A stretch of 57,763 nt of DNA from IMG/VR virus record IMGVR_UViG_3300045988_077974. The stretch is one strand, 5' to 3'. The stretch's first letter is position 1, and each line of letters opens with the position of its first letter. The notes beneath the pieces were generated by a model, which was given only the letters and a program-made list of their open reading frames with translations, was not told the DNA's origin and searched no databases. This document shows, one piece after another, positions 1-57,763 of this stretch. The position numbers and the translations under genes are program-made. The stretch is from a virus.

Positions 1-108
1 GTAATCTCCAGAGCTACCAATCTGTGCGGAATCTCCAGAGCTACCAATCTTTGCGGAATCTCCAGAGCTACCAATCTTTGCGGAATCTCCAGAGCTACCA
101 ATCTGCGC
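1..108. repeat. 27-bp tandem repeat, 4 units (consensus ggaatctccagagctaccaatctgtgc)
   Basis: Units at 1-27, 28-54, 55-81 and 82-108 differ only at three variable positions. Same family as 57373..57763. Confidence 0.95.
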
Positions 109-480
109 GTTTCTTTCTTTGCTGTCGTTTTTGCCAGAACCATCACAGGTAAATCTTGTCTTTTCGATGGTAAAGTCAACACACGCTTTGATAAATCCTT
201 TAAGACCAAGCTTTAAACCGACGTGTAATTTGTTCGTAGCACATTTATCCTCTTTTTCGTATACATCTCCGACAGCTTCCACCTCTGAAAATTCAGAAAT
301 ATTGCCATTTTCATCTACTAATGGATAATAATTAAGCACGTCGAACGGCTCCTTGCAAAAATGCATAACACCAGATTCACAAATTTCGTTTCCGCTTTCC
401 TCGTAAGTAGTATTTTCCTCATACTGCTTTCCTTTGCAAATCATTCCTTTTTCGTAAGCTTTGTAACCTTTAACTGACAT
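1..480 (-). CDS. Repeat protein, N-terminal part: DUF7666-like head followed by IGSSGD[YS]A[QK] nonapeptide repeats. The ORF runs off the window start and is continued by 57149..57763 if the molecule is circular
   Basis: ATG at 480-478 sits behind a GGAGA RBS. My translation MSVKGYKAYEKGMICKGKQYEENTTYEESGNEICESGVMHFCKEPFDVLNYYPL... stays open to nt 1 and enters the 27-bp repeats. It is absent from the ORF track because no stop lies in the window. Confidence 0.7.
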   Translation of the reverse strand, partial: MSVKGYKAYEKGMICKGKQYEENTTYEESGNEICESGVMHFCKEPFDVLNYYPLVDENGNISEFSEVEAVGDVYEKEDKCATNKLHVGLKLGLKGFIKACVDFTIEKTRFTCDGSGKNDSKERNAQIGSSGDSAKIGSSGDSAKIGSSGDSAQIGSSGDY

Positions 481-20701: not shown

Positions 20702-20815
20702 AATTACCTCCGATATGTCATACGATTTTTTATACGGTGCAACGACACCGATTGACATTGTTGATTTTTACGCTCACAACTTTGCGAATTTTTATAAAAT
20801 AAAAACGGCTACTGA

Positions 20816-22276
20816 TTATTCAGCAACCGTTTTATCTATCTCTTTGTCTAATGGATTGTCGTTATTTAATTTATCTGTTATTTCCTTGGCTTTTCTTTCC
20901 TGTTCTTCCAAATCATCAATCGTTTGATATTTCGCTTTTAAGTACGGATCAGAAAGAATAAATGTTTTTTCCGCATCTCCCCAAAGACCAACTGTTTTAA
21001 TAGCCACAAGCGGATGAATACCACATTGTAAAAGTACCGTAAGCGTTTGTGCTTTTGTGTACATATTATCCTGCGGACTGTGATTGATCTGCACATCAAA
21101 ATCCCTTGAGGTAATGCCAAGATCATGATCTTTTATTCTGATAATGTTCAGAATAATTTTCGCCAGCTTCTTTTCTGCAGACTTTACCAATGGGTCTTTC
21201 AGCTTTGCCCTTGTCTTTGAAAAATCCCAACCATTTCTAAGTTGAACCGCTCCCTGTGTATCTCCACCGGAATTATTATTGTTTTTATTTGGGATTGCTA
21301 AAATTGATAAAGCGTTATCCCACAGATCATCTTTCGCAACCTGGCATTCCGTTTGATTAAGCTCCTGCGTCATCACATCAACATCTGATTTATTGTCTTT
21401 GTTGATTGACTTTACGACCAAGGCTCGATTCATTTTCATTTTTTCAAATTCTTCTGAATCAATTTCACAATTTACGAATTTTATCCAGCTTTGAACGAAT
21501 TGTTCAATACCGTCCATTCTGTTCGATTGCATTGTATTGATAGAATCTAAAATATCAATGACAAGTTCGATATCAGATATTCTTTCGTGGTTGTTCGGAA
21601 ACTCCACAATCGGAATACCACCAAAACCGTGTAATTTCCAATCATAAACTTTTCCGTCTGCAATTTTGCATTCATGTGTCTTTGTATAGCAAAGCTTATA
21701 CCACTCGCCATCTTCATTTTTCAATTCTTGGACGGCAACCAACGCCTCTTCTGTATGTCTGCTATAAATAACAAACGTATTCATCGGAGATGGAGCAACG
21801 ATACGAAACGGTATGTCGCCATCGGAAAATTGTGCCGCTTTAAACGACGTCCCTACGGCAGATTGCCATTCTCCGGCTTTGATATCTTTTTCCTGTTTGT
21901 CGGCATCCGTTGTATAATCGTTATATTCATCAACAGCCTTGTTAATGTTTTCATCATTTTTCCGGCTTACCATTTGCACCGGCTCACCGTAAGTTTGCCC
22001 TACTTTAAATTGCACAATTTCATATGCGTGATTTTCTTCTACCTTATTTGTGATATCTTCATTCGATACTTTGGTTCTATAAAGCACCGGCTGATCTCCT
22101 TTGTAATAATTCCAAAGGTACTCAATAGCTGTTTTATTGTAGTTAAAAATTCCAATGCAATTTCCGATAACATTAGAAATATTATTCGCCGTTATCGTTT
22201 CTACGTCCGTATATGCAATTTTCCGTCCGTATCTACCTTTCGCAATATCACGAAATGGCATTTTGTTTCTTAACAT
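20816..22276 (-). CDS. Portal protein (SPP1 gp6-like)
   Basis: 486 aa downstream of terL. YLWNYYKGDQPVLYR and the QSWIKF region are typical of SPP1-type portals. Confidence 0.88.
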   Translation of the reverse strand: MLRNKMPFRDIAKGRYGRKIAYTDVETITANNISNVIGNCIGIFNYNKTAIEYLWNYYKGDQPVLYRTKVSNEDITNKVEENHAYEIVQFKVGQTYGEPVQMVSRKNDENINKAVDEYNDYTTDADKQEKDIKAGEWQSAVGTSFKAAQFSDGDIPFRIVAPSPMNTFVIYSRHTEEALVAVQELKNEDGEWYKLCYTKTHECKIADGKVYDWKLHGFGGIPIVEFPNNHERISDIELVIDILDSINTMQSNRMDGIEQFVQSWIKFVNCEIDSEEFEKMKMNRALVVKSINKDNKSDVDVMTQELNQTECQVAKDDLWDNALSILAIPNKNNNNSGGDTQGAVQLRNGWDFSKTRAKLKDPLVKSAEKKLAKIILNIIRIKDHDLGITSRDFDVQINHSPQDNMYTKAQTLTVLLQCGIHPLVAIKTVGLWGDAEKTFILSDPYLKAKYQTIDDLEEQERKAKEITDKLNNDNPLDKEIDKTVAE

Positions 22277-22501: not shown

Positions 22502-22531
22502 AAAACAAAAAAGGACACCTAAATGGTGTCC
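22502..22531 (-). terminator. Rho-independent terminator between the DUF1492 gene and the portal block
   Basis: Stem GGACACC (22513-22519) pairs with GGTGTCC (22525-22531). The plus-strand A-run at 22502-22512 gives a U-tail on the minus strand. Confidence 0.7.
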
Positions 22532-22622
22532 CCTCTACATCACAGGAGTAAAGATATGAGCTTTAACTCTTTCTTCACGATAAATATTATCATAAAAGAT
22601 ATATGACATTCTATGACAAGTT

Positions 22623-23046: not shown

Positions 23047-24771
23047 TCAATACCTCCTAAATGGATTTTTTATTGCTTCTACTTTTGCAACTCTATTTCC
23101 TTGGGTTATTCTTAGAGCAAAGTTTGAAAAAACATCCGGCACATCATCTAATTGTTTTTTCCCGGATACAGAATATTGCTTTAATAACGACATCATCACG
23201 CCGTATGGATCGTTTGGTTTATAAAGAGAACTGTCTTTAAAAATTACATGCTGCAATATCCAGTTTGAACATTGAAAAATTCTTGCTTCTTTGTTCGTTT
23301 CCGTTGGAACGTCAGTTATATTGCATATCCACCCAACACTTTCCACACGTTTATTTACTTCCATGGCTACACGGTCTCCGCCGGCATTACGCTCAAATTC
23401 GCATTCTTGTACTTTATTATTTACAAGAACTCCTGCGGCGTTTCTATATTGTTCTTCATAATCTGCCGTGTTATCGCACACGCAATCCACGCAATAATAA
23501 TCTTCTCCGTATTTTTGTAGAACAGGCAACACAAAATAGTCAGTTCCTTTTCCTTTTGTATCACACTGACCCGTAACAATTTCCGGTTCTCCGTGCGGCA
23601 AATTAAGATACCGTCGAATTTTATCTTCCGGAAACAATAGCCCTTCTCTTTCAATCGGATCCTGTTTGTATAGGCAGCGATAAGAAATTTCATCCATAAG
23701 CAACTGTATGTCTTCAAAATCCTTTACCGTATATCCACCGAATTCAAAGTTGAAATTACTTTCTCCAGTTTTCGGGTCAATGTCCGGAACCGATATCACC
23801 TTTACCCTTTTATTTCCCTCATATGCCTGTATAATACGACCTATAACATCCCGAACGCTCCATCTCGTAGCAATGTGTATTTCCTTGCACGGATTTCCGT
23901 CTTCGTCCGGAATTTTTCTCTGTCTAGCATCTACAGCATACTTTCCCCATAATTTATCAAGATAAGTAGGGTTTAGTGCTTCTTCAATTCCCCCAATCAT
24001 ATCATCAACAAGCAAAAATTTATTTGCACGGACTTTACCAGCATTTTTACTTCCGACTGACGTACATTGTACAGACTGAAACGGCTTATACTTTCCGACA
24101 TTAAATTGTTCAAGTTTTGCGTTTGTACTTGTTACTTTAAGGTCTGGGAATATTTCATTCCAGGTATATTCATCTTCGTTCGTTACAATATCGTACATAC
24201 CGTCATAATACATTCTGGTAATATCTCCGCTATGGGAATAAAAAAGATTATATCCACTCGTATACCATCCTATAACCGCAGAATGGAAAAATTTTTCAAT
24301 CGTTGTCTTTCCTGTTCCTGGGGGTAATGAGATACACAATATGTCGTACTTATCATCAATCATCCCCTGCAACGCATCCACAAGACCAATTTTTAAAAAT
24401 TGTTTTCTTCTTGGCATATAAAAACGCTCTTTAGGCTCTCTTTTTTTCTCAATGTACCTAAAAAAACTGTCAACAATTTTATTTTGAGCTTCGATCAACA
24501 AAATCTCATAATATTTATCCAGCAATTCAAAAGAGCTTTTATTTTTGAAAACAAACTTTTCTATGCCCCACATATCAAGTCCTGTGTCACGAATGCATAC
24601 GGTTTCTATCAGCTCTTTTGCTCTAGCCGTACATTTCAGCATTAAGTCAGTTTTTTTTTCTTCCTTAGCAAGCTGGCACACATCACAGTATGTATTTATT
24701 ATGTTTTCATCAATTCCATTTCGGGTAATATACTTTTCGCAATCAGAAATCAGATTTTCTAATTCAGACAT
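23047..24771 (-). CDS. terL: Terminase large subunit
   Basis: Walker A ISLPPGTGKTT and LLVDDMIGG, plus the C-terminal nuclease half. Preferred start is the ATG at 24771 (MSELENL...) behind GAGGTG. Confidence 0.9.
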   Translation of the reverse strand: MSELENLISDCEKYITRNGIDENIINTYCDVCQLAKEEKKTDLMLKCTARAKELIETVCIRDTGLDMWGIEKFVFKNKSSFELLDKYYEILLIEAQNKIVDSFFRYIEKKREPKERFYMPRRKQFLKIGLVDALQGMIDDKYDILCISLPPGTGKTTIEKFFHSAVIGWYTSGYNLFYSHSGDITRMYYDGMYDIVTNEDEYTWNEIFPDLKVTSTNAKLEQFNVGKYKPFQSVQCTSVGSKNAGKVRANKFLLVDDMIGGIEEALNPTYLDKLWGKYAVDARQRKIPDEDGNPCKEIHIATRWSVRDVIGRIIQAYEGNKRVKVISVPDIDPKTGESNFNFEFGGYTVKDFEDIQLLMDEISYRCLYKQDPIEREGLLFPEDKIRRYLNLPHGEPEIVTGQCDTKGKGTDYFVLPVLQKYGEDYYCVDCVCDNTADYEEQYRNAAGVLVNNKVQECEFERNAGGDRVAMEVNKRVESVGWICNITDVPTETNKEARIFQCSNWILQHVIFKDSSLYKPNDPYGVMMSLLKQYSVSGKKQLDDVPDVFSNFALRITQGNRVAKVEAIKNPFRRY

Positions 24772-24777
24772 AAAGAA

Positions 24778-24807
24778 AAGCACCTCGCTTTCACAGCAAA
24801 GGTGCTT
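24778..24807 (-). promoter_or_regulatory. Hairpin sequestering the terL RBS (terminator/attenuator-like)
   Basis: AAGCACCT (24800-24807) pairs with AGGTGCTT (24778-24785) on the minus-strand RNA, followed by UUCUUU and the AUG. The GAGGUG RBS is inside the 3' arm. Confidence 0.5.
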
Positions 24808-28712: not shown

Positions 28713-28872
28713 ATTGTTTACCTCCTACGAAACATAAACAGCACCACGCTTTATGTGCTAAACTCTACGATTAATAAAAAACAACAAACAGGCAGTCGTA
28801 GGTCTGCTTTTCGGTCTGCATCACCTAGTTTGTTGCATTTATTTACTGATAATATTCAAATATCAGCAAAAC

Positions 28873-29346: not shown

Positions 29347-29418
29347 CTAGGGTACCCGGATTCGAACCGGGAAGTCTGGGAACCAAAATCCCATGCCTTA
29401 CCATTTGGCGATACCCCA
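29347..29418 (-). tRNA. tRNA-Gln (anticodon UUG)
   Basis: Minus-strand sequence TGGGGTATCGCCAAATGGTAAGGCATGGGATTTTGGTTCCCAGACTTCCCGGTTCGAATCCGGGTACCCTA-G. Full cloverleaf drawn by hand: U1:A72, G73, anticodon loop UUUUGGU, T-loop TTCGAAT. No encoded CCA. Confidence 0.88.
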
Positions 29419-30241: not shown

Positions 30242-30434
30242 TGTTTTCACTCCTGTTGTATATTGATTATGGTTAATGCTGTCAAGAGCAGGTCTTTTTG
30301 TTTTTGAGAATATTTGGGGGGCTTAGTACGCCCGCTAGGGCGTCCGGTACAGAGGGGGACGCCCCTTTTTCATCTGGAGCCGTGAAATGGTCCCGAAATG
30401 GTGATTTTTCTTCCGGTTTCCTGCCGTTCCTTTG

Positions 30435-30470
30435 GCTCTCTTTGATAAAGTCCGGTTTATCCAAGAGAGC
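30435..30470. other. Long hairpin (15-bp stem, one mismatch) just downstream of terS
   Basis: GCTCTCTTTGATAAA (30435-30449), loop gtccgg, TTTATCCAAGAGAGC (30456-30470). Confidence 0.8.
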
Positions 30471-30491
30471 TACCACAATATATAGTGGTGT

Positions 30492-31157
30492 TTATCCACC
30501 ATCCACAACATCTTGTGTTTCGGTGTGTTTGCTGTCAGACAACCGAGCTCGAATGTCTGACGCTGTAAGCGCTTTCTTCGCTTCTCGCTCCTTGCTTACG
30601 CCTGGTAGGTTCCACCCGTAGTGCTTATTGAGGATTGCTATCTGAGCTACCGCCTGCTTACTGTCCACCAGCTTTGCGCTCAAGCTCTCTTCTCTTTCCT
30701 GCGATAATTTTTTGTAAATATCCGCACCCGAATCACTTAATATATTCTTTTCATCTCTCCAAGCATAAATAGTATTATCATCTATACCAGTTAATTTATT
30801 AAATCCTAATATGCTAACTTCTTTACAGTATTGATAACACATATATATATAATAATCACATATCTCATTTACTAAACTAATATTATAAGCATTACAATTC
30901 GATTTATTGAGATTACTGGTAACATCAGAGTTATTATTGTTTTTGTAACCATTAAGGTGATTGTTTAATTTTAATTTATTAGTTCCTTTGAAAAGGTGAT
31001 GTTGAATATATAAAAGAGCCGCATTCCATACCCCCTGCGGTGCTGTGGTCATATCCTCGATTGGTGGCTTTCTCTGCTCGCAAAACTCCTGCAAATAATA
31101 TTCGATATCGTTGGCGAACACCTCGCCGGTCAATGGCTCATCCTCTAATCGTTCCAC
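30492..31157 (-). CDS. terS: Terminase small subunit candidate
   Basis: GTG start behind AAGGAGGTGA. The C-terminal half (ILGFNKLTGIDDNTIYAWRDE...KLSQEREESLSAKLVDSKQ.AVAQIAILNKHYGWN) resembles the HTH plus oligomerisation region of TerS proteins. First gene after a long regulatory gap. Confidence 0.55.
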   Translation of the reverse strand: MERLEDEPLTGEVFANDIEYYLQEFCEQRKPPIEDMTTAPQGVWNAALLYIQHHLFKGTNKLKLNNHLNGYKNNNNSDVTSNLNKSNCNAYNISLVNEICDYYIYMCYQYCKEVSILGFNKLTGIDDNTIYAWRDEKNILSDSGADIYKKLSQEREESLSAKLVDSKQAVAQIAILNKHYGWNLPGVSKEREAKKALTASDIRARLSDSKHTETQDVVDGG

Positions 31158-31177
31158 GTTCTCACCTCCTTAAATCA

Positions 31178-31213
31178 AATAAAAAACGCCCACAAGAAAG
31201 ACCTAACAGGCGT
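31178..31213 (-). terminator. Leader terminator immediately upstream of the terS RBS
   Basis: Minus-strand RNA reads ACGCCUG-(14 nt)-UGGGCGU followed by UUUUUUAUUU, about 15 nt before AAGGAGGUGA. Confidence 0.5.
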
Positions 31214-31340
31214 ATATATAACACCTCTGGTCATTCCTGCGAGCGTTCCGTTGCCGTCCTGGCTCGTCATCCTATCGCTTTAAGTATCTGCTCCCCTCTC
31301 ACGGCTCCGGGGTGATCCTCTGCCGGTAACACCGGCTGCG
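31214..31340 (-). ncRNA. GC-rich structured leader RNA of the late operon (unclassified)
   Basis: Locally GC-rich in an AT-rich genome. Hairpins include GCCGG-UGUUA-CCGGC, CCCC...GGGG and CGAGC...GCUCG. No credible ORF, and no riboswitch class recognised. Confidence 0.4.
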
Positions 31341-31510
31341 ATTCAGATCTAAATTGTAATTGAGATTATAAATCAATATTTTTATTTTGTCAATATCTAA
31401 AAAAAATAATAATTTATTTTCGTTTTTTCTTTCCTTTTTTCTTTCCTTTTCTCTTTCTTCTTTTCTCCTATTGTACAAAAAGTATTTATTTTAGTGTATT
31501 ATTTTGGCGC

Positions 31511-31542
31511 AAAATAAAAAAGCACCTATATTTCAAGGTGCT
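31511..31542 (-). terminator. Rho-independent terminator ending the upstream (early/middle) unit
   Basis: AGCACC (31521-31526) pairs with GGTGCT (31537-31542). The plus-strand A-run at 31511-31520 gives a U-tail on the minus strand. Confidence 0.75.
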
Positions 31543-31564
31543 TAAAATGATATCTACTTTTTCT

Positions 31565-31858
31565 TTATTCATCTTCATTTTTGACGGCTAAATAATAAGT
31601 CTCTTCATTCTCTTCTCCGTCTTCATCGGTCCATCTCGTCCCTACGTTGTAAAAGCTGTATCCGTAAACCTCATCATTTGGCTGCTCCGGATCAAGATAT
31701 GCTTCTTGCACATACGTTACAACCTCATCATATCCATCACTAGAATACACTCCATACGCTTCGCCCTCCTTTGGGATCCTATCTACAACGTCATAAGACC
31801 TATGATATATCTTATTGCTCCTCTCGTTATATCCTACGTTTGCCTTTATTGTCTTCAT
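31565..31858 (-). CDS. Hypothetical acidic protein
   Basis: ORF track. Followed by a terminator. Confidence 0.55.
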   Translation of the reverse strand: MKTIKANVGYNERSNKIYHRSYDVVDRIPKEGEAYGVYSSDGYDEVVTYVQEAYLDPEQPNDEVYGYSFYNVGTRWTDEDGEENEETYYLAVKNEDE

Positions 31859-32404: not shown

Positions 32405-32588
32405 TATCGTTATATTATTATATAATGTTATCGTTATTTTGTCAAGCATTTTGAAGAACGGTATCTTATAGCATTATCGTTATATTATTATATAATGTTA
32501 TCGTTATACATATTGCACAATAAATAATATAATGTTATCGTTATATTTGTGTGGTTTGTCTATTGAAATCATATAACGATAGCGTTAT
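32405..32588. repeat. Iteron array: six TTATCGTTAT-type sites, including a 33-bp direct repeat and one inverted pair
   Basis: Sites at 32405-32413, 32428-32437, 32474-32483, 32498-32507 and 32535-32544, plus the inverted pair ATAACGAT/AGCGTTAT at 32573-32588. The unit tatcgttatattattatataatgttatcgttat occurs at 32405-32437 and 32475-32507. Confidence 0.9.
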
Positions 32589-32642
32589 ACTATATTCAAG
32601 ATCAAAAGAAAGGAGCCGGAAAATCCGGCAGGGTAAAGAAAA

Positions 32643-32976: not shown

Positions 32977-33065
32977 TACCCGATAGCCGAAACGCTCAAT
33001 TCCGGAGCGTCCACCGCGGGATGGTCTCCCGGTGCTGATGATGGCAGACCAGAAAGGGAAATATT

Positions 33066-57148: not shown

Positions 57149-57763
57149 CTATTCAAGCTCCACAAATTCTCCGTTTTTTAATCGGTAAAACGTATCTTCT
57201 TTAATTTTTTCTCCGTCAACACATTCTGTTTTGACGCATACCGGAATCAAATAAGAATTATCGTTTTCATTTTTTCTTTCCCATTCAGCCAATGTAATCC
57301 AACTGCCAATTTTTGCTTTTGCAACAGAGTCCATTCCAGCTGCCATTATTACGGAGTGTTTGCCTTCCGATTCAATCTGTGCGTAATCTCCAGAGCTACC
57401 AATCTGCGCGTAATCTCCAGAGCTACCAATCTGTGCGTAATCTCCAGAGCTACCAATCTGTGCGGAATCTCCAGAGCTACCAATCTTTGCGGAATATCCA
57501 GAGCTACCAATCTGTGCGTAATCTCCAGAGCTACCAATCTGTGCGGAATCTCCAGAGCTACCAATCTGCGCGGAATATCCAGAGCTACCAATCTGTGCGT
57601 AATATCCAGAGCTACCAATCTTTGCGGAATCTCCAGAGCTACCAATCTGCGCGGAATATCCAGAGCTACCAATCTGTGCGGAATATCCAGAGCTACCAAT
57701 CTGTGCGTAATCTCCAGAGCTACCAATCTGTGCGTAATCTCCAGAGCTACCAATCTGTGCGGA
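57149..57763 (-). CDS. Repeat protein, C-terminal part (nonapeptide repeats plus 65-aa tail); 5' end leaves the window
   Basis: The frame of track ORF 57149..57346 stays open upstream through every repeat. Hand check gives ...SAQIGSSGDYAQIGSSGDYAQIESEGKHSVIMAAGMDSV... The track ORF 57349..57753 (HRLVALEIT) is a different, probably non-coding frame. Confidence 0.7.
   Translation of the reverse strand, partial: SAQIGSSGDYAQIGSSGDYAQIGSSGYSAQIGSSGYSAQIGSSGDSAKIGSSGYYAQIGSSGYSAQIGSSGDSAQIGSSGDYAQIGSSGYSAKIGSSGDSAQIGSSGDYAQIGSSGDYAQIGSSGDYAQIESEGKHSVIMAAGMDSVAKAKIGSWITLAEWERKNENDNSYLIPVCVKTECVDGEKIKEDTFYRLKNGEFVELE
57373..57763. repeat. 27-bp tandem repeat, about 14 units
   Basis: Units start at 57383. 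Variants are gta/gga, atc/ata and ctgtgc/ctgcgc/ctttgc. Continues at 1..108. Confidence 0.95.

What the first reader, a model, noticed from the sequence alone, without database searches (positions are those of the whole stretch)
31178..31340. GC-rich structured leader ending in an intrinsic terminator immediately before the terS RBS
The upstream unit ends at a strong terminator (31511-31542). Then come a 46-nt polypurine tract on the coding strand and an AT-rich gap. After that the minus-strand RNA becomes sharply GC-rich for about 125 nt, with several hairpins. It ends in ACGCCUG..UGGGCGU plus U6, about 15 nt before AAGGAGGUGA-GUG of terS.

This layout (promoter-proximal structured RNA, terminator, then late genes) parallels lambda pR'-6S-tR'/Q and the HK022 put RNA. 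It is also the layout of riboswitch attenuators. I could not match it to any riboswitch or ribozyme consensus I know.
Basis: partly seen in the sequence, partly recalled or inferred. Interest (0 to 1): 0.65.

Follow-up and report, generated by a model that had tools for sequence, protein, structure and literature searches.

The report
Phage leader RNA with built-in terminator
Just upstream of a gut phage's DNA-packaging gene lies a conserved, folded RNA that ends in a transcription stop signal; it belongs to an RNA family absent from Rfam 15, and it probably decides whether the genes downstream of it are transcribed.

Summary
On the minus strand there is a perfect TTGACA-17-TATAAT promoter (31393-31365). 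It is followed by a ~115-nt GC-rich folded leader (31350-31236), a long intrinsic terminator with a U-tract (31246-31181), and then the RBS and GTG of a 221-aa gene weakly related to P22 gp3 small terminase.

No Rfam 15 family matches the leader. It does belong to a family of 39 copies in gut-phage contigs, plus two in MAGs. All copies share:
- a closing helix P1, an optional hairpin, and a two-part helix P2;
- a 12-13-nt P2 loop holding GYCGU;
- the tail AGGA-N-GAGCNAGGACGGCAA;
- a terminator whose eight basal pairs never change partner type.

P1, P1a, P2a and the upper terminator stem show compensatory changes. The loop GCCGU can pair with the tail ACGGC. The tail GAGC can pair with GCUC at the terminator base, which would make an antiterminator.

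The motif precedes terS-like genes and also antirepressor-like genes, and one contig carries two copies. Homologous genes in other lineages keep the promoter-leader-terminator layout but have unrelated leaders.

Best reading: a cis-acting antitermination gate. The input signal is unknown.

The parts
31512..31543 (-). Intrinsic terminator that closes the upstream unit (the 97-aa ORF at 31565-31858)
   Evidence: 8-bp stem, 8-nt loop, then a T-run.
31423..31469 (-). 47-nt polypurine tract upstream of the promoter. It may act at the DNA level (UP element or pac region) and is not part of the RNA.
   Evidence: Similar purine tracts lie upstream of the promoter in L117/L118, L125/L129, L200 and Dulem virus 39.
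31365..31393 (-). Sigma-70-type promoter TTGACA-17-TATAAT (12/12). The transcription start is inferred near 31358.
   Evidence: An equivalent consensus-like promoter lies 14-22 nt upstream of the motif in every subtype.
31236..31350 (-). Structured sensor domain of the leader. Its extent is the covariance-model hit of the 'class A' motif.
   Evidence: 104 bits, E about 3e-27 to 5e-27. The window has only this one copy.
31338..31342 (-). P1 5' strand, AUCGC. It pairs with GCGAU at 31278-31274.
   Evidence: Folded in the MFE structure. Four of six P1 columns show changes on both sides across the family.
31322..31336 (-). P1a, an optional hairpin GCCGGU-GUU-ACCGGC
   Evidence: 96% paired, 2 of 5 pairs with changes on both sides. 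Several subtypes lack it.
31293..31312 (-). P2b, CCCC/GGGG, with the conserved 12-nt loop GGAGCCGUGAGA. GCCGU occupies 31305-31301.
   Evidence: The loop consensus across subtypes is GYCGU followed by ...GA.
31270..31278 (-). P1 3' strand GCGAU followed by the invariant AGGA
   Evidence: invariant columns ATAGGA.
31251..31265 (-). Conserved tail GAGCCAGGACGGCAA. ACGGC (31257-31253) can pair with the P2 loop GCCGU. GAGC (31265-31262) can pair with GCUC at the terminator base.
   Evidence: Invariant in 24 leaders. The pseudoknot columns are 100% pairable, with one C-to-U wobble variant. The GAGC:GCUC helix appears in folds of truncated transcripts.
31181..31246 (-). Long intrinsic terminator. 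The 5' strand is 31246-31222 and the 3' strand is 31212-31186. The base ACGCUCGC:GUGGGCGU is followed by U6.
   Evidence: 96% paired, basal 8 bp with no change of partner type, and 7 of the next 8 pairs with changes on both sides.
31155..31171 (-). Shine-Dalgarno AAGGAGGTGA and the GTG start of the downstream gene
30492..31157 (-). 221-aa gene under control of the leader. It is terS-like, of the P22 gp3 / GP3_package type.
   Evidence: Nine of 13 homologues hit PF16677 weakly. The top BFVD fold matches are named DNA-packaging protein gp3 or terminase small subunit. P22 gp3 (3p9a) is a weak PDB match. The window protein itself gives no direct Pfam or PHROG hit.

Best explanation
This is a cis-acting transcription gate at the head of the phage's packaging and morphogenesis operon.

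Shown:
- Host RNA polymerase has a consensus promoter to start from.
- The first ~115 nt of the transcript match a conserved fold (P1, P1a, P2).
- A strong intrinsic terminator lies 10 nt before the ribosome-binding site.
- The fold and the terminator always travel together as one conserved cassette.

Inferred:
- By default transcription stops at the terminator. This yields a ~175-nt RNA and keeps the operon shut, for example in a lysogen.
- When the gate opens, the terminator is bypassed. The P2 loop GCCGU would kiss ACGGC in the tail. That would stabilise a short helix between the tail GAGC and the GCUC at the base of the terminator's 5' strand, so the terminator hairpin cannot nucleate. The folded domain may also act on the polymerase itself, making it resistant to terminators further downstream.
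- The input is most likely a phage- or host-encoded factor, or the polymerase itself. That would make it nut-, put-, conAn2- or canT-like rather than a metabolite sensor. It has not been identified.
For: 1. Anatomy: 12/12 promoter, leader fold with z = -4.5, and a long terminator with U6 just before the RBS.
2. The leader belongs to a family. There are 39 real matches in IMG/VR and two more in MAG contigs, each with a promoter 14-22 nt upstream and the same terminator base.
3. Compensatory changes support P1, P1a and P2a. Overall 84% of cells are paired, against 30-46% when the partners are slid by 1-3 columns. The upper terminator stem also covaries.
4. The basal 8 bp of the terminator, the tail GAGC..ACGGC and the loop GCCGU are invariant or change only to wobble pairs, while the other helices drift. 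This is what shared alternative pairing would produce. Folds of truncated transcripts form GAGC:GCUC in three subtypes.
5. The motif precedes different genes: terS-like genes and Rha, ORF6N and Bro antirepressor-like genes. It occurs twice in one contig (L225 and L236). That distribution is like nutL/nutR or putL/putR.
6. Homologous terS-like genes in other lineages keep the promoter-leader-terminator layout but carry unrelated leaders (classes B, D, E) or only a hairpin. The model R1 does not detect these. This fits lineage-specific recognition elements.
7. Downstream on the same strand there is no 11-12/12 promoter until 9870. Terminator-like elements lie at 28835-28768 (int-alpA), 22536-22508 and 20833-20802. 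Read-through of several terminators therefore seems to be needed.
8. RNA antiterminators placed just after the main promoter are documented in Gram-positive mobile elements: conAn2 with an essential GC-rich segment (PMC8191782) and canT of Tn916 (PMC11658703).
Against: - No antiterminator protein has been identified. No protein was found that all motif-bearing phages share, although most of those genomes are known only in part.
- The proposed P3 helix has only 4-5 bp and shows no covariation. The pseudoknot is invariant, so neither is proven.
- The linker between the tail and the terminator varies from 4 to about 20 nt. A tightly coupled switch would not be expected to tolerate that.
- The family comes from perhaps nine sequence subtypes, so the covariation rests on few independent events.
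- 'Late operon' is an inference. A DnaD-like gene lies between the terS-like gene and terL.
- There are no expression data of any kind.
Confidence: 0.5

Rival explanations
1. It is a small-molecule riboswitch. The P1-P2-pseudoknot domain would be an aptamer for a host metabolite or second messenger. Ligand binding would shift the balance between the GAGC:GCUC antiterminator and the terminator, timing the packaging and antirepressor operons to the state of the host.
For: - Invariant nucleotides sit in loops and junctions while the helices covary.
- A pseudoknot is possible.
- The terminator follows immediately, and its conserved 5' base can pair with a conserved tail segment.
- The motif precedes several different genes and can occur twice in a genome.
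- No known class matches.
Against: - The motif was found only in phage and MAG contigs, never next to metabolic or transport genes.
- At the same genomic position other lineages carry unrelated leaders or none. That is more typical of factor-specific sites than of a universal ligand.
- The candidate antiterminator is only 4-5 bp, against a terminator helix of at least 16 bp.
- The linker length varies.
Confidence: 0.2
2. It is a stand-alone small RNA gene. Promoter and terminator would make an abundant ~175-nt RNA that acts in trans, for example as an immunity RNA like P4 CI or P1 c4, as a decoy, or as a protein sponge. Regulation of the downstream gene would be incidental.
For: - A consensus promoter plus an efficient-looking terminator is the standard anatomy of an sRNA gene.
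- The cassette moves between gene contexts.
- GGA motifs are modestly enriched in some class A leaders: L083 and L201, p = 0.006 against dinucleotide shuffles.
Against: - The cassette always lies in sense orientation a few nucleotides before an RBS.
- Plain promoter-hairpin versions occupy the same position in relatives (L009, L116, L085) and would make an RNA with no content.
- No conserved complementary target was found. The 10-nt complement 851 nt downstream in the window is absent from near-identical relatives, and the count is at chance level.
- GGA enrichment does not hold across leaders in general.
Confidence: 0.13
3. It is a passive attenuator or insulator. The hairpin would always stop a fixed fraction of transcripts, setting a low level of terS and shielding the operon from upstream transcription. 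The folded domain would only stabilise or process the RNA.
For: - Some relatives have only a promoter and a hairpin.
- Terminators serving as insulators are documented in Tn916 (PMC11658703).
Against: This does not explain the ~115-nt domain with invariant loop, tail and terminator-base sequences, nor why the same domain recurs in front of unrelated genes.
Confidence: 0.1
4. The element acts at the DNA level, as a pac site or terS-binding site. The GC-rich block in an AT-rich spacer upstream of terS would be recognised as double-stranded DNA to start packaging.
For: - It lies directly upstream of a terS-like gene. An A-tract and polypurine region precedes it, which by my recollection resembles SPP1 pacL.
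- Contig L003 begins with an Illumina adapter about 330 nt upstream of the gene. That may mark a physical DNA end in this spacer.
Against: - Compensatory changes preserve pairing within one strand.
- The motif also occurs upstream of antirepressor-like genes in phages whose fetched regions hold no terS-like gene, and twice in one contig.
- The possible DNA end lies upstream of the promoter, outside the motif.
Confidence: 0.05

Closest known systems
Lambda pR'-6S RNA-tR' with the Q antiterminator
   Same: - A constitutive, consensus-type promoter.
- A short terminated transcript, ~175 nt here against 194 nt in lambda.
- A terminator that locks a long operon containing packaging, morphogenesis and lysis genes.
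   Different: - Q recognises promoter DNA and a sigma-dependent pause, not a folded RNA. Here the conserved, covarying feature is the RNA.
- No Q homologue was seen among the ORFs scanned.
- -10-like hexamers in the initial transcribed region are not consistent across subtypes.
HK022 put RNA (putL, putR)
   Same: - A promoter-proximal folded RNA.
- More than one copy per genome at the heads of operons.
- It could act in cis on the polymerase to read through several terminators.
   Different: - By my recollection put consists of two stem-loops of about 70 nt, with no pseudoknot and no terminator built in.
- There is no sequence resemblance that I can test with these tools.
- The hosts here are probably Firmicutes. 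The basis is distant prophage homologues in Lacrimispora.
conAn2 RNA of pLS20-type plasmids and canT of Tn916
   Same: - RNA antiterminators of Gram-positive mobile elements, placed just downstream of the main promoter.
- conAn2 needs a short GC-rich segment and a stem-loop (PMC8191782).
- canT acts in cis and processively (PMC11658703).
- The window phage has a Tn916-type Xis.
   Different: - conAn2 and canT are about 300-450 nt and have no defined consensus fold.
- conAn2 works with the ConAn1 protein.
- Sequences were not compared here, and a ConAn1 homologue was not searched for.
Transcriptional riboswitches (aptamer plus terminator). The guanidine-III pseudoknot is the nearest in look.
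   Same: - A compact pseudoknotted domain with invariant loop nucleotides, followed directly by an intrinsic terminator.
- From my memory of its sequence, guanidine-III also uses a GCCGU:ACGGC-type pseudoknot next to CAGGAC.
   Different: - No Rfam riboswitch model scores, even at E <= 10.
- The gene context is phage packaging and antirepressor genes, not metabolism or transport.
- No ligand is known.
P4 CI RNA and P1 c4 immunity RNAs
   Same: A small structured RNA encoded at the 5' end of an operon that controls transcription or translation further down the same operon. The P1 system controls an antirepressor.
   Different: - Those RNAs act through 8-nt or longer complementarity to repeated target sites. 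No conserved target was found here.
- The Rfam c4 models do not match.

Membership tests
Any Rfam 15 family (riboswitches, ribozymes, leaders, phage RNAs) | Covariance-model score at or above the family's gathering threshold | tested here: not met
   whole window; 31100-31600 at E <= 10, only chance-level hits on the leader; related loci; other subtypes at E <= 1.
Intrinsic (factor-independent) terminator | GC-rich hairpin followed directly by a U-tract on the transcribed strand | tested here: met
   The helix has at least 16 bp, is 96% paired across 24 sequences, and is followed by U5-U7.
Lambda-type Q antitermination (pR'/qut/tR') | Strong constitutive promoter with a terminator shortly downstream, ahead of the late operon | tested here: met
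Lambda-type Q antitermination (pR'/qut/tR') | A Q-family protein encoded by the phage | tested here: inconclusive
   Pfam or PHROGs scans of ~37 window ORFs gave no antiterminator family. Many ORFs were not scanned.
Lambda-type Q antitermination (pR'/qut/tR') | Conserved -10-like pause element in the initial transcribed region and a Q-binding element in the promoter | tested here: inconclusive
   The window has TACAAT just after the -10 hexamer. The other subtypes have only generic AT-rich sequence there.
HK022 put-type RNA antiterminator | Promoter-proximal folded RNA, one copy per operon, several per genome | tested here: met
   The motif starts about +8 to +16 in all subtypes. One contig has two copies.
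HK022 put-type RNA antiterminator | Protein-independent, processive modification of RNA polymerase | not testable with these tools
   Needs in vitro transcription.
Metabolite riboswitch | Conserved aptamer with helices supported by covariation | tested here: met
   Compensatory changes in P1 (4 of 6 columns), P1a (2 of 5) and P2a (5 of 5). Invariant loop and tail.
Metabolite riboswitch | Expression platform that is mutually exclusive with part of the aptamer | tested here: inconclusive
   The only candidate is a 4-5-bp GAGC:GCUC helix. It is invariant, so it shows no covariation.
Metabolite riboswitch | Association with genes for metabolism or transport of one compound; specific ligand binding | tested here: not met
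   The downstream genes are terS-like or antirepressor-like. Ligand binding cannot be tested here.
conAn (ConAn1 + conAn2) / canT | Large RNA (300 nt or more) after the main promoter, and for conAn a ConAn1 protein | not tested
   Only the published descriptions were read. No sequences were at hand to compare. The element here is about 115 nt plus the terminator.
Terminase small subunit (label of the downstream gene) | Sequence or fold similarity to a known terS family | tested here: inconclusive
   PF16677 GP3_package hits 9 of 13 homologues (best E = 6e-5) but not the window protein. The AF2 model has mean pLDDT 68. Its BFVD matches are named gp3 or terS (E down to 5e-9 for unnamed or 'DNA-packaging' proteins). 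P22 gp3 in the PDB gives E = 1.9, probability 0.63. The gene is not adjacent to terL.

The most novel reading that the evidence does not exclude
The motif is a previously undescribed regulatory RNA class specific to gut phages. It would be either a riboswitch for a host signal or a self-sufficient, put-like RNA antiterminator. It would co-ordinate a small regulon of packaging-operon and antirepressor-operon leaders, with up to two copies per genome. Its terminator base would form part of the sensor through the GAGC:GCUC helix and the GCCGU:ACGGC kissing interaction.
Probability: 0.35. Interest if true: 0.85.

Novelty: new variant of a known kind. Interest (0 to 1): 0.62.

Why it matters
Little is known about how temperate phages of gut Firmicutes keep their packaging and morphogenesis genes silent, or how they release them. 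The systems I know of rely on protein activators such as RinA, ArpU and LtrC.

This cassette combines a consensus promoter, a conserved pseudoknot-capable leader and a terminator with an invariant base. It recurs in front of different operons. That points to an RNA-centred gate, the Gram-positive phage counterpart of lambda Q/tR', HK022 put or plasmid conAn.

If the input turns out to be a small molecule, this would be a new riboswitch class found only in phages, linking host physiology to lytic development. In either case the family gives an ~175-nt element that is compact and easy to test by mutation. It also gives a covariance model for annotating it in viromes.

Tried and rejected
1. **Rfam.** Scans at gathering and at permissive E-values on the window and on other subtypes found nothing on the leader.
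2. **GenBank phages.** DNA searches with three subtype leaders gave no match. The 8-kb neighbourhood also gave none.
3. **First DNA pattern.** GACGAGCNAGGACGGCAA returned 15 further loci from non-gut metagenomes, and all were chance matches in coding sequence. The refined pattern with ATAGGA gave the real family plus 2 chance hits.
4. **CsrA-type GGA sponge.** GGA is enriched only in some class A leaders and not across leaders in general.
5. **Leader peptide.** The 31-aa ORF at 31175-31270 has no usable SD spacing, and its ATG is absent from the other subtypes.
6. **Long-range antisense target of the P2 loop.** The 10-nt complement 851 nt downstream in the window is absent from near-identical relatives, and the counts are at chance level.
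7. **Homology of class B and D leaders with class A.** They share an AGCCG-containing hairpin loop by eye, but the model R1 finds no match.
8. **Antiterminator pairings other than GAGC:GCUC.** P2 loop GUGAG with CUCAC, and P2 5' strand with GGGCG, are not kept across subtypes (manual inspection of the and 61 sequences).
9. **Protein shared by all motif-bearing phages.** None was found in the partial loci held.
11. **Literature.** Searches on terS and structured RNA gave nothing specific.

Full report
**1. The observation**

Read on the minus strand, the region contains the following, in order.
- The upstream 97-aa ORF ends at an intrinsic terminator, stem 31543-31520 plus a T-run.
- A 47-nt polypurine tract lies at 31469-31423.
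- An AT-rich spacer follows, with GC 0.15-0.20.
- A perfect sigma-70-type promoter, TTGACA-17-TATAAT, lies at 31393-31365.
- GC then rises to 0.52-0.59 over 31349-31200.

The 184-nt transcript folds at -67.5 kcal/mol. Dinucleotide shuffles give -49.6 +/- 4.0, so z = -4.5, and none of 200 shuffles folds as well. The transcript ends in a hairpin and U6 (31186-31181). Nine nucleotides later come AAGGAGGTGA and the GTG of a 221-aa ORF, 30492-31157.

**2. The downstream gene**

The 221-aa protein has no direct Pfam or PHROG hit. It belongs to a large family, with 848 hits.
- Nine of 13 members hit PF16677, the DNA-packaging protein gp3 family, weakly.
- An AlphaFold2 model (mean pLDDT 68) matches predicted viral structures named DNA-packaging protein, gp3 or terminase small subunit.
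- It matches P22 gp3 (3p9a) weakly.

'terS-like' is therefore reasonable but not proven.

The gene is not adjacent to terL (23047-24783). Between them lie a DUF3310 gene, tRNA-Gln(UUG), an int-alpA RNA and a DnaD-like gene.

The phage is temperate. It has an integrase, a Tn916-type Xis, a CI-like repressor and a Bro-N/KilAC antirepressor.

**3. The layout is conserved in relatives**

I fetched homologues of the gene from IMG/VR, GTDB genomes, Logan/ENA contigs and GenBank. Most are preceded by the same layout: a consensus-like promoter, a leader of 60-250 nt, a long hairpin with a U-tract, an SD, and then the gene. The layout persists down to 32% protein identity, in Dulem virus 39, where the polypurine tract is also present.

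The leader itself differs by lineage.
- Class A: the window and its relatives.
- Class B: at least 53 distinct sequences, with two alternative terminators. One of them shows clear double compensatory changes, GAUCAG/CUGAUC against GACAAG/CUUGUC.
- Class D: L117 and L118.
- A further class in Dulem virus 39.
- Bare promoter-hairpin versions: L009, L116 and L085.

Distant prophage homologues in Lacrimispora and other Lachnospiraceae have no such leader.

**4. The window's leader belongs to a wider RNA family**

A divergent copy in a MAG (L083) showed which blocks are conserved. A pattern built on those blocks, ATAGGA-N(1-10)-GAGCNAGGACGGCA, returned 41 stretches from IMG/VR, of which 39 are real. 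A further copy lies in an NCBI MAG (L201).

About nine sequence subtypes share these features:
- a promoter 14-22 nt upstream of the motif;
- the 5' sequence CCGAAUC, which includes the P1 5' strand;
- an optional hairpin, P1a;
- a two-part helix P2, whose upper part CCC/GGG carries a 12-13-nt loop containing GYCGU and ending in GA;
- the P1 3' strand;
- the tail AGGA-N(4-6)-GAGCNAGGACGGCAA;
- a linker of 4 to about 20 nt;
- a terminator whose base is always ACGCUC(A/G)C paired with GUG(G/A)GCGU, followed by a U-tract.

A covariance model built from 24 sequences (R1) scores the window copy at 104 bits. It finds no second copy in the window and no match in class B or D leaders. No Rfam family matches any subtype. 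No GenBank phage carries the motif.

**5. Structural support**

On the model-based alignment, 84% of cells form standard pairs. When the partners are slid by 1-3 columns the figure is 30-46%. Eleven pairs show changes on both sides.

| Helix | Pairs with changes on both sides |
|---|---|
| P1 | 4 of 6 |
| P1a | 2 of 5 |
| P2a | 5 of 5 |

Examples of P1 variants are AUCGC/GCGAU, AUCCGC/GCGGAU, GUUGC/GCAAU, GUUCUGU/ACAGAAU and AUCUUU/AAAGAU.

The terminator helix is 96% paired. Seven of its eight upper pairs show changes on both sides. Its eight basal pairs never change partner type, and the only variants are U-G to U-A and A-U to G-U.

It is not the conserved helix.

The covariation comes from few independent lineages, so it is supportive rather than conclusive.

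**6. Elements that look like a switch**

These points are inferred.
- The loop GCCGU (31305-31301) is complementary to the tail ACGGC (31257-31253). All 30 distinct sequences can form the five pairs. The only variant, GUCGU, keeps pairing through a wobble.
- The tail GAGC (31265-31262) is complementary to GCUC in the terminator's 5' base. When transcripts are folded before the terminator's 3' strand exists, this helix forms in the window, in L206 and in L236, and it encloses ACGGC in its loop.
- These segments are invariant while other helices drift. A structure in which a loop-loop contact stabilises a short antiterminator that competes with the terminator would explain that.
- Neither pairing shows covariation, and the helix is only 4-5 bp.

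**7. Genomic logic**

The motif precedes terS-like genes in six subtypes. In two other subtypes it precedes Rha-, ORF6N- or Bro-type antirepressor-like genes, in phages whose fetched regions hold no terS-like gene. One contig carries two copies, one before each kind of gene. The cassette is therefore a portable regulatory module, like nutL/nutR or putL/putR.

In the window, the minus strand downstream of the leader has no 11-12/12 promoter until 9870. It contains terminator-like elements at 28835-28768 (int-alpA), 22536-22508 and 20833-20802, before the final terminator at 3753-3728. This hints that read-through of several terminators is needed.

RNA antiterminators placed after the main promoter are documented in Gram-positive mobile elements. 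conAn2 has an essential GC-rich segment (PMC8191782). canT of Tn916 acts in cis and processively (PMC11658703).

**8. Verdict**

The most likely function is a cis-acting antitermination gate for the packaging operon (confidence 0.5). The input is more likely a phage or host factor, or the polymerase itself, than a metabolite, because unrelated leaders occupy the same position in sister lineages.

| Rival reading | Confidence |
|---|---|
| Metabolite riboswitch | 0.2 |
| Trans-acting small RNA | 0.13 |
| Passive attenuator | 0.1 |
| DNA-level pac site | 0.05 |

The RNA family is absent from Rfam 15, and my few literature searches turned up no description of it. The kind of regulation, a terminator-gated phage operon, is known.

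Noticed in passing
window 32985-33053 (+): Type II hammerhead ribozyme, 64 bits against a gathering score of 37. It lies among small plus-strand ORFs about 1.6 kb from the leader. Related loci L001, L006, L009, L079 and L236 have hammerhead II copies at comparable positions.
   Followed up: partly
window 28768-28835 (-), 29347-29418 (-): An int-alpA RNA (47 bits), itself ending in a U-run, lies just upstream of the DnaD-like gene, and tRNA-Gln(UUG) lies nearby. In L001 and L006 a second int-alpA copy sits just after the terS-like gene. In L209 an int-alpA directly follows the class A terminator.
   Followed up: partly
window 30255-30495 (-): The GC-rich stretch (GC 0.45-0.55) right after the terS-like stop codon folds unusually well, z = -4.1, and has no Rfam match. 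Relatives have an int-alpA copy at this position. It contains a 10-nt complement of the leader's P2 loop, but close relatives do not keep that complement.
   Followed up: partly
window 31423-31469 (-); L117/L118, L125/L129, L200, L240: A polypurine tract upstream of the promoter recurs in distant relatives, including Dulem virus 39. This suggests a DNA-level role such as an UP element, a bend or a pac region.
   Followed up: no
L003, first ~30 bases; L004, L039, L060 contig starts: Contig L003 begins with an Illumina adapter followed by AT-rich sequence, about 330 nt upstream of the terS-like start. Several other contigs start 260-620 nt upstream of the gene. This may mark a physical genome end or pac cut in this spacer.
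   Followed up: no
L083, L089, L090, L125, L126, 150-300 nt upstream of the terS-like gene: A GC-rich stretch of roughly alternating purines and pyrimidines (for example CGCGCGTGTGCGTGCG, CCGCACGCACACGCGG) followed by ATATATA lies upstream of the promoter in several lineages. The window has nothing like it.
   Followed up: no
L010-L080 (class B leaders): A different conserved leader of about 230 nt occupies the same position. It has two hairpin loops holding GGAGCCGAC, and two mutually exclusive terminators. The loop of the first pairs into the base of the second.
   Followed up: partly
window 32445-32417, 31947-31919, 31393-31365 (-); 2757-2729 (-): Three consensus or near-consensus promoters lie in series within 1.1 kb on the minus strand. 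Each is followed by a short gene or by the leader. They face plus-strand promoter-like sites at 32505-32591. Another 12/12 promoter lies at 2757.
   Followed up: no
window 30750-30950 (inside the terS-like ORF): GC falls to 0.20-0.26 in the middle of the ORF. This stretch encodes an Asn-rich linker (NNNNSDVTSNLNKSNCN) that varies in length among homologues.
   Followed up: no
window 1-120 and 57640-57763: Both ends of the window consist of tandem ~30-nt repeats (AATCTCCAGAGCTACCAATCTGTGCGG...). The assembly appears to break inside a repetitive coding region.
   Followed up: no
window 22508-22536 and 20802-20833 (-): Strong intrinsic-terminator-like hairpins (12 and 14 bp) lie inside the structural-gene operon. 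One follows a 140-aa PHROG 'transcriptional regulator' gene located between terL and portal. The other lies at the end of the portal gene.
   Followed up: no
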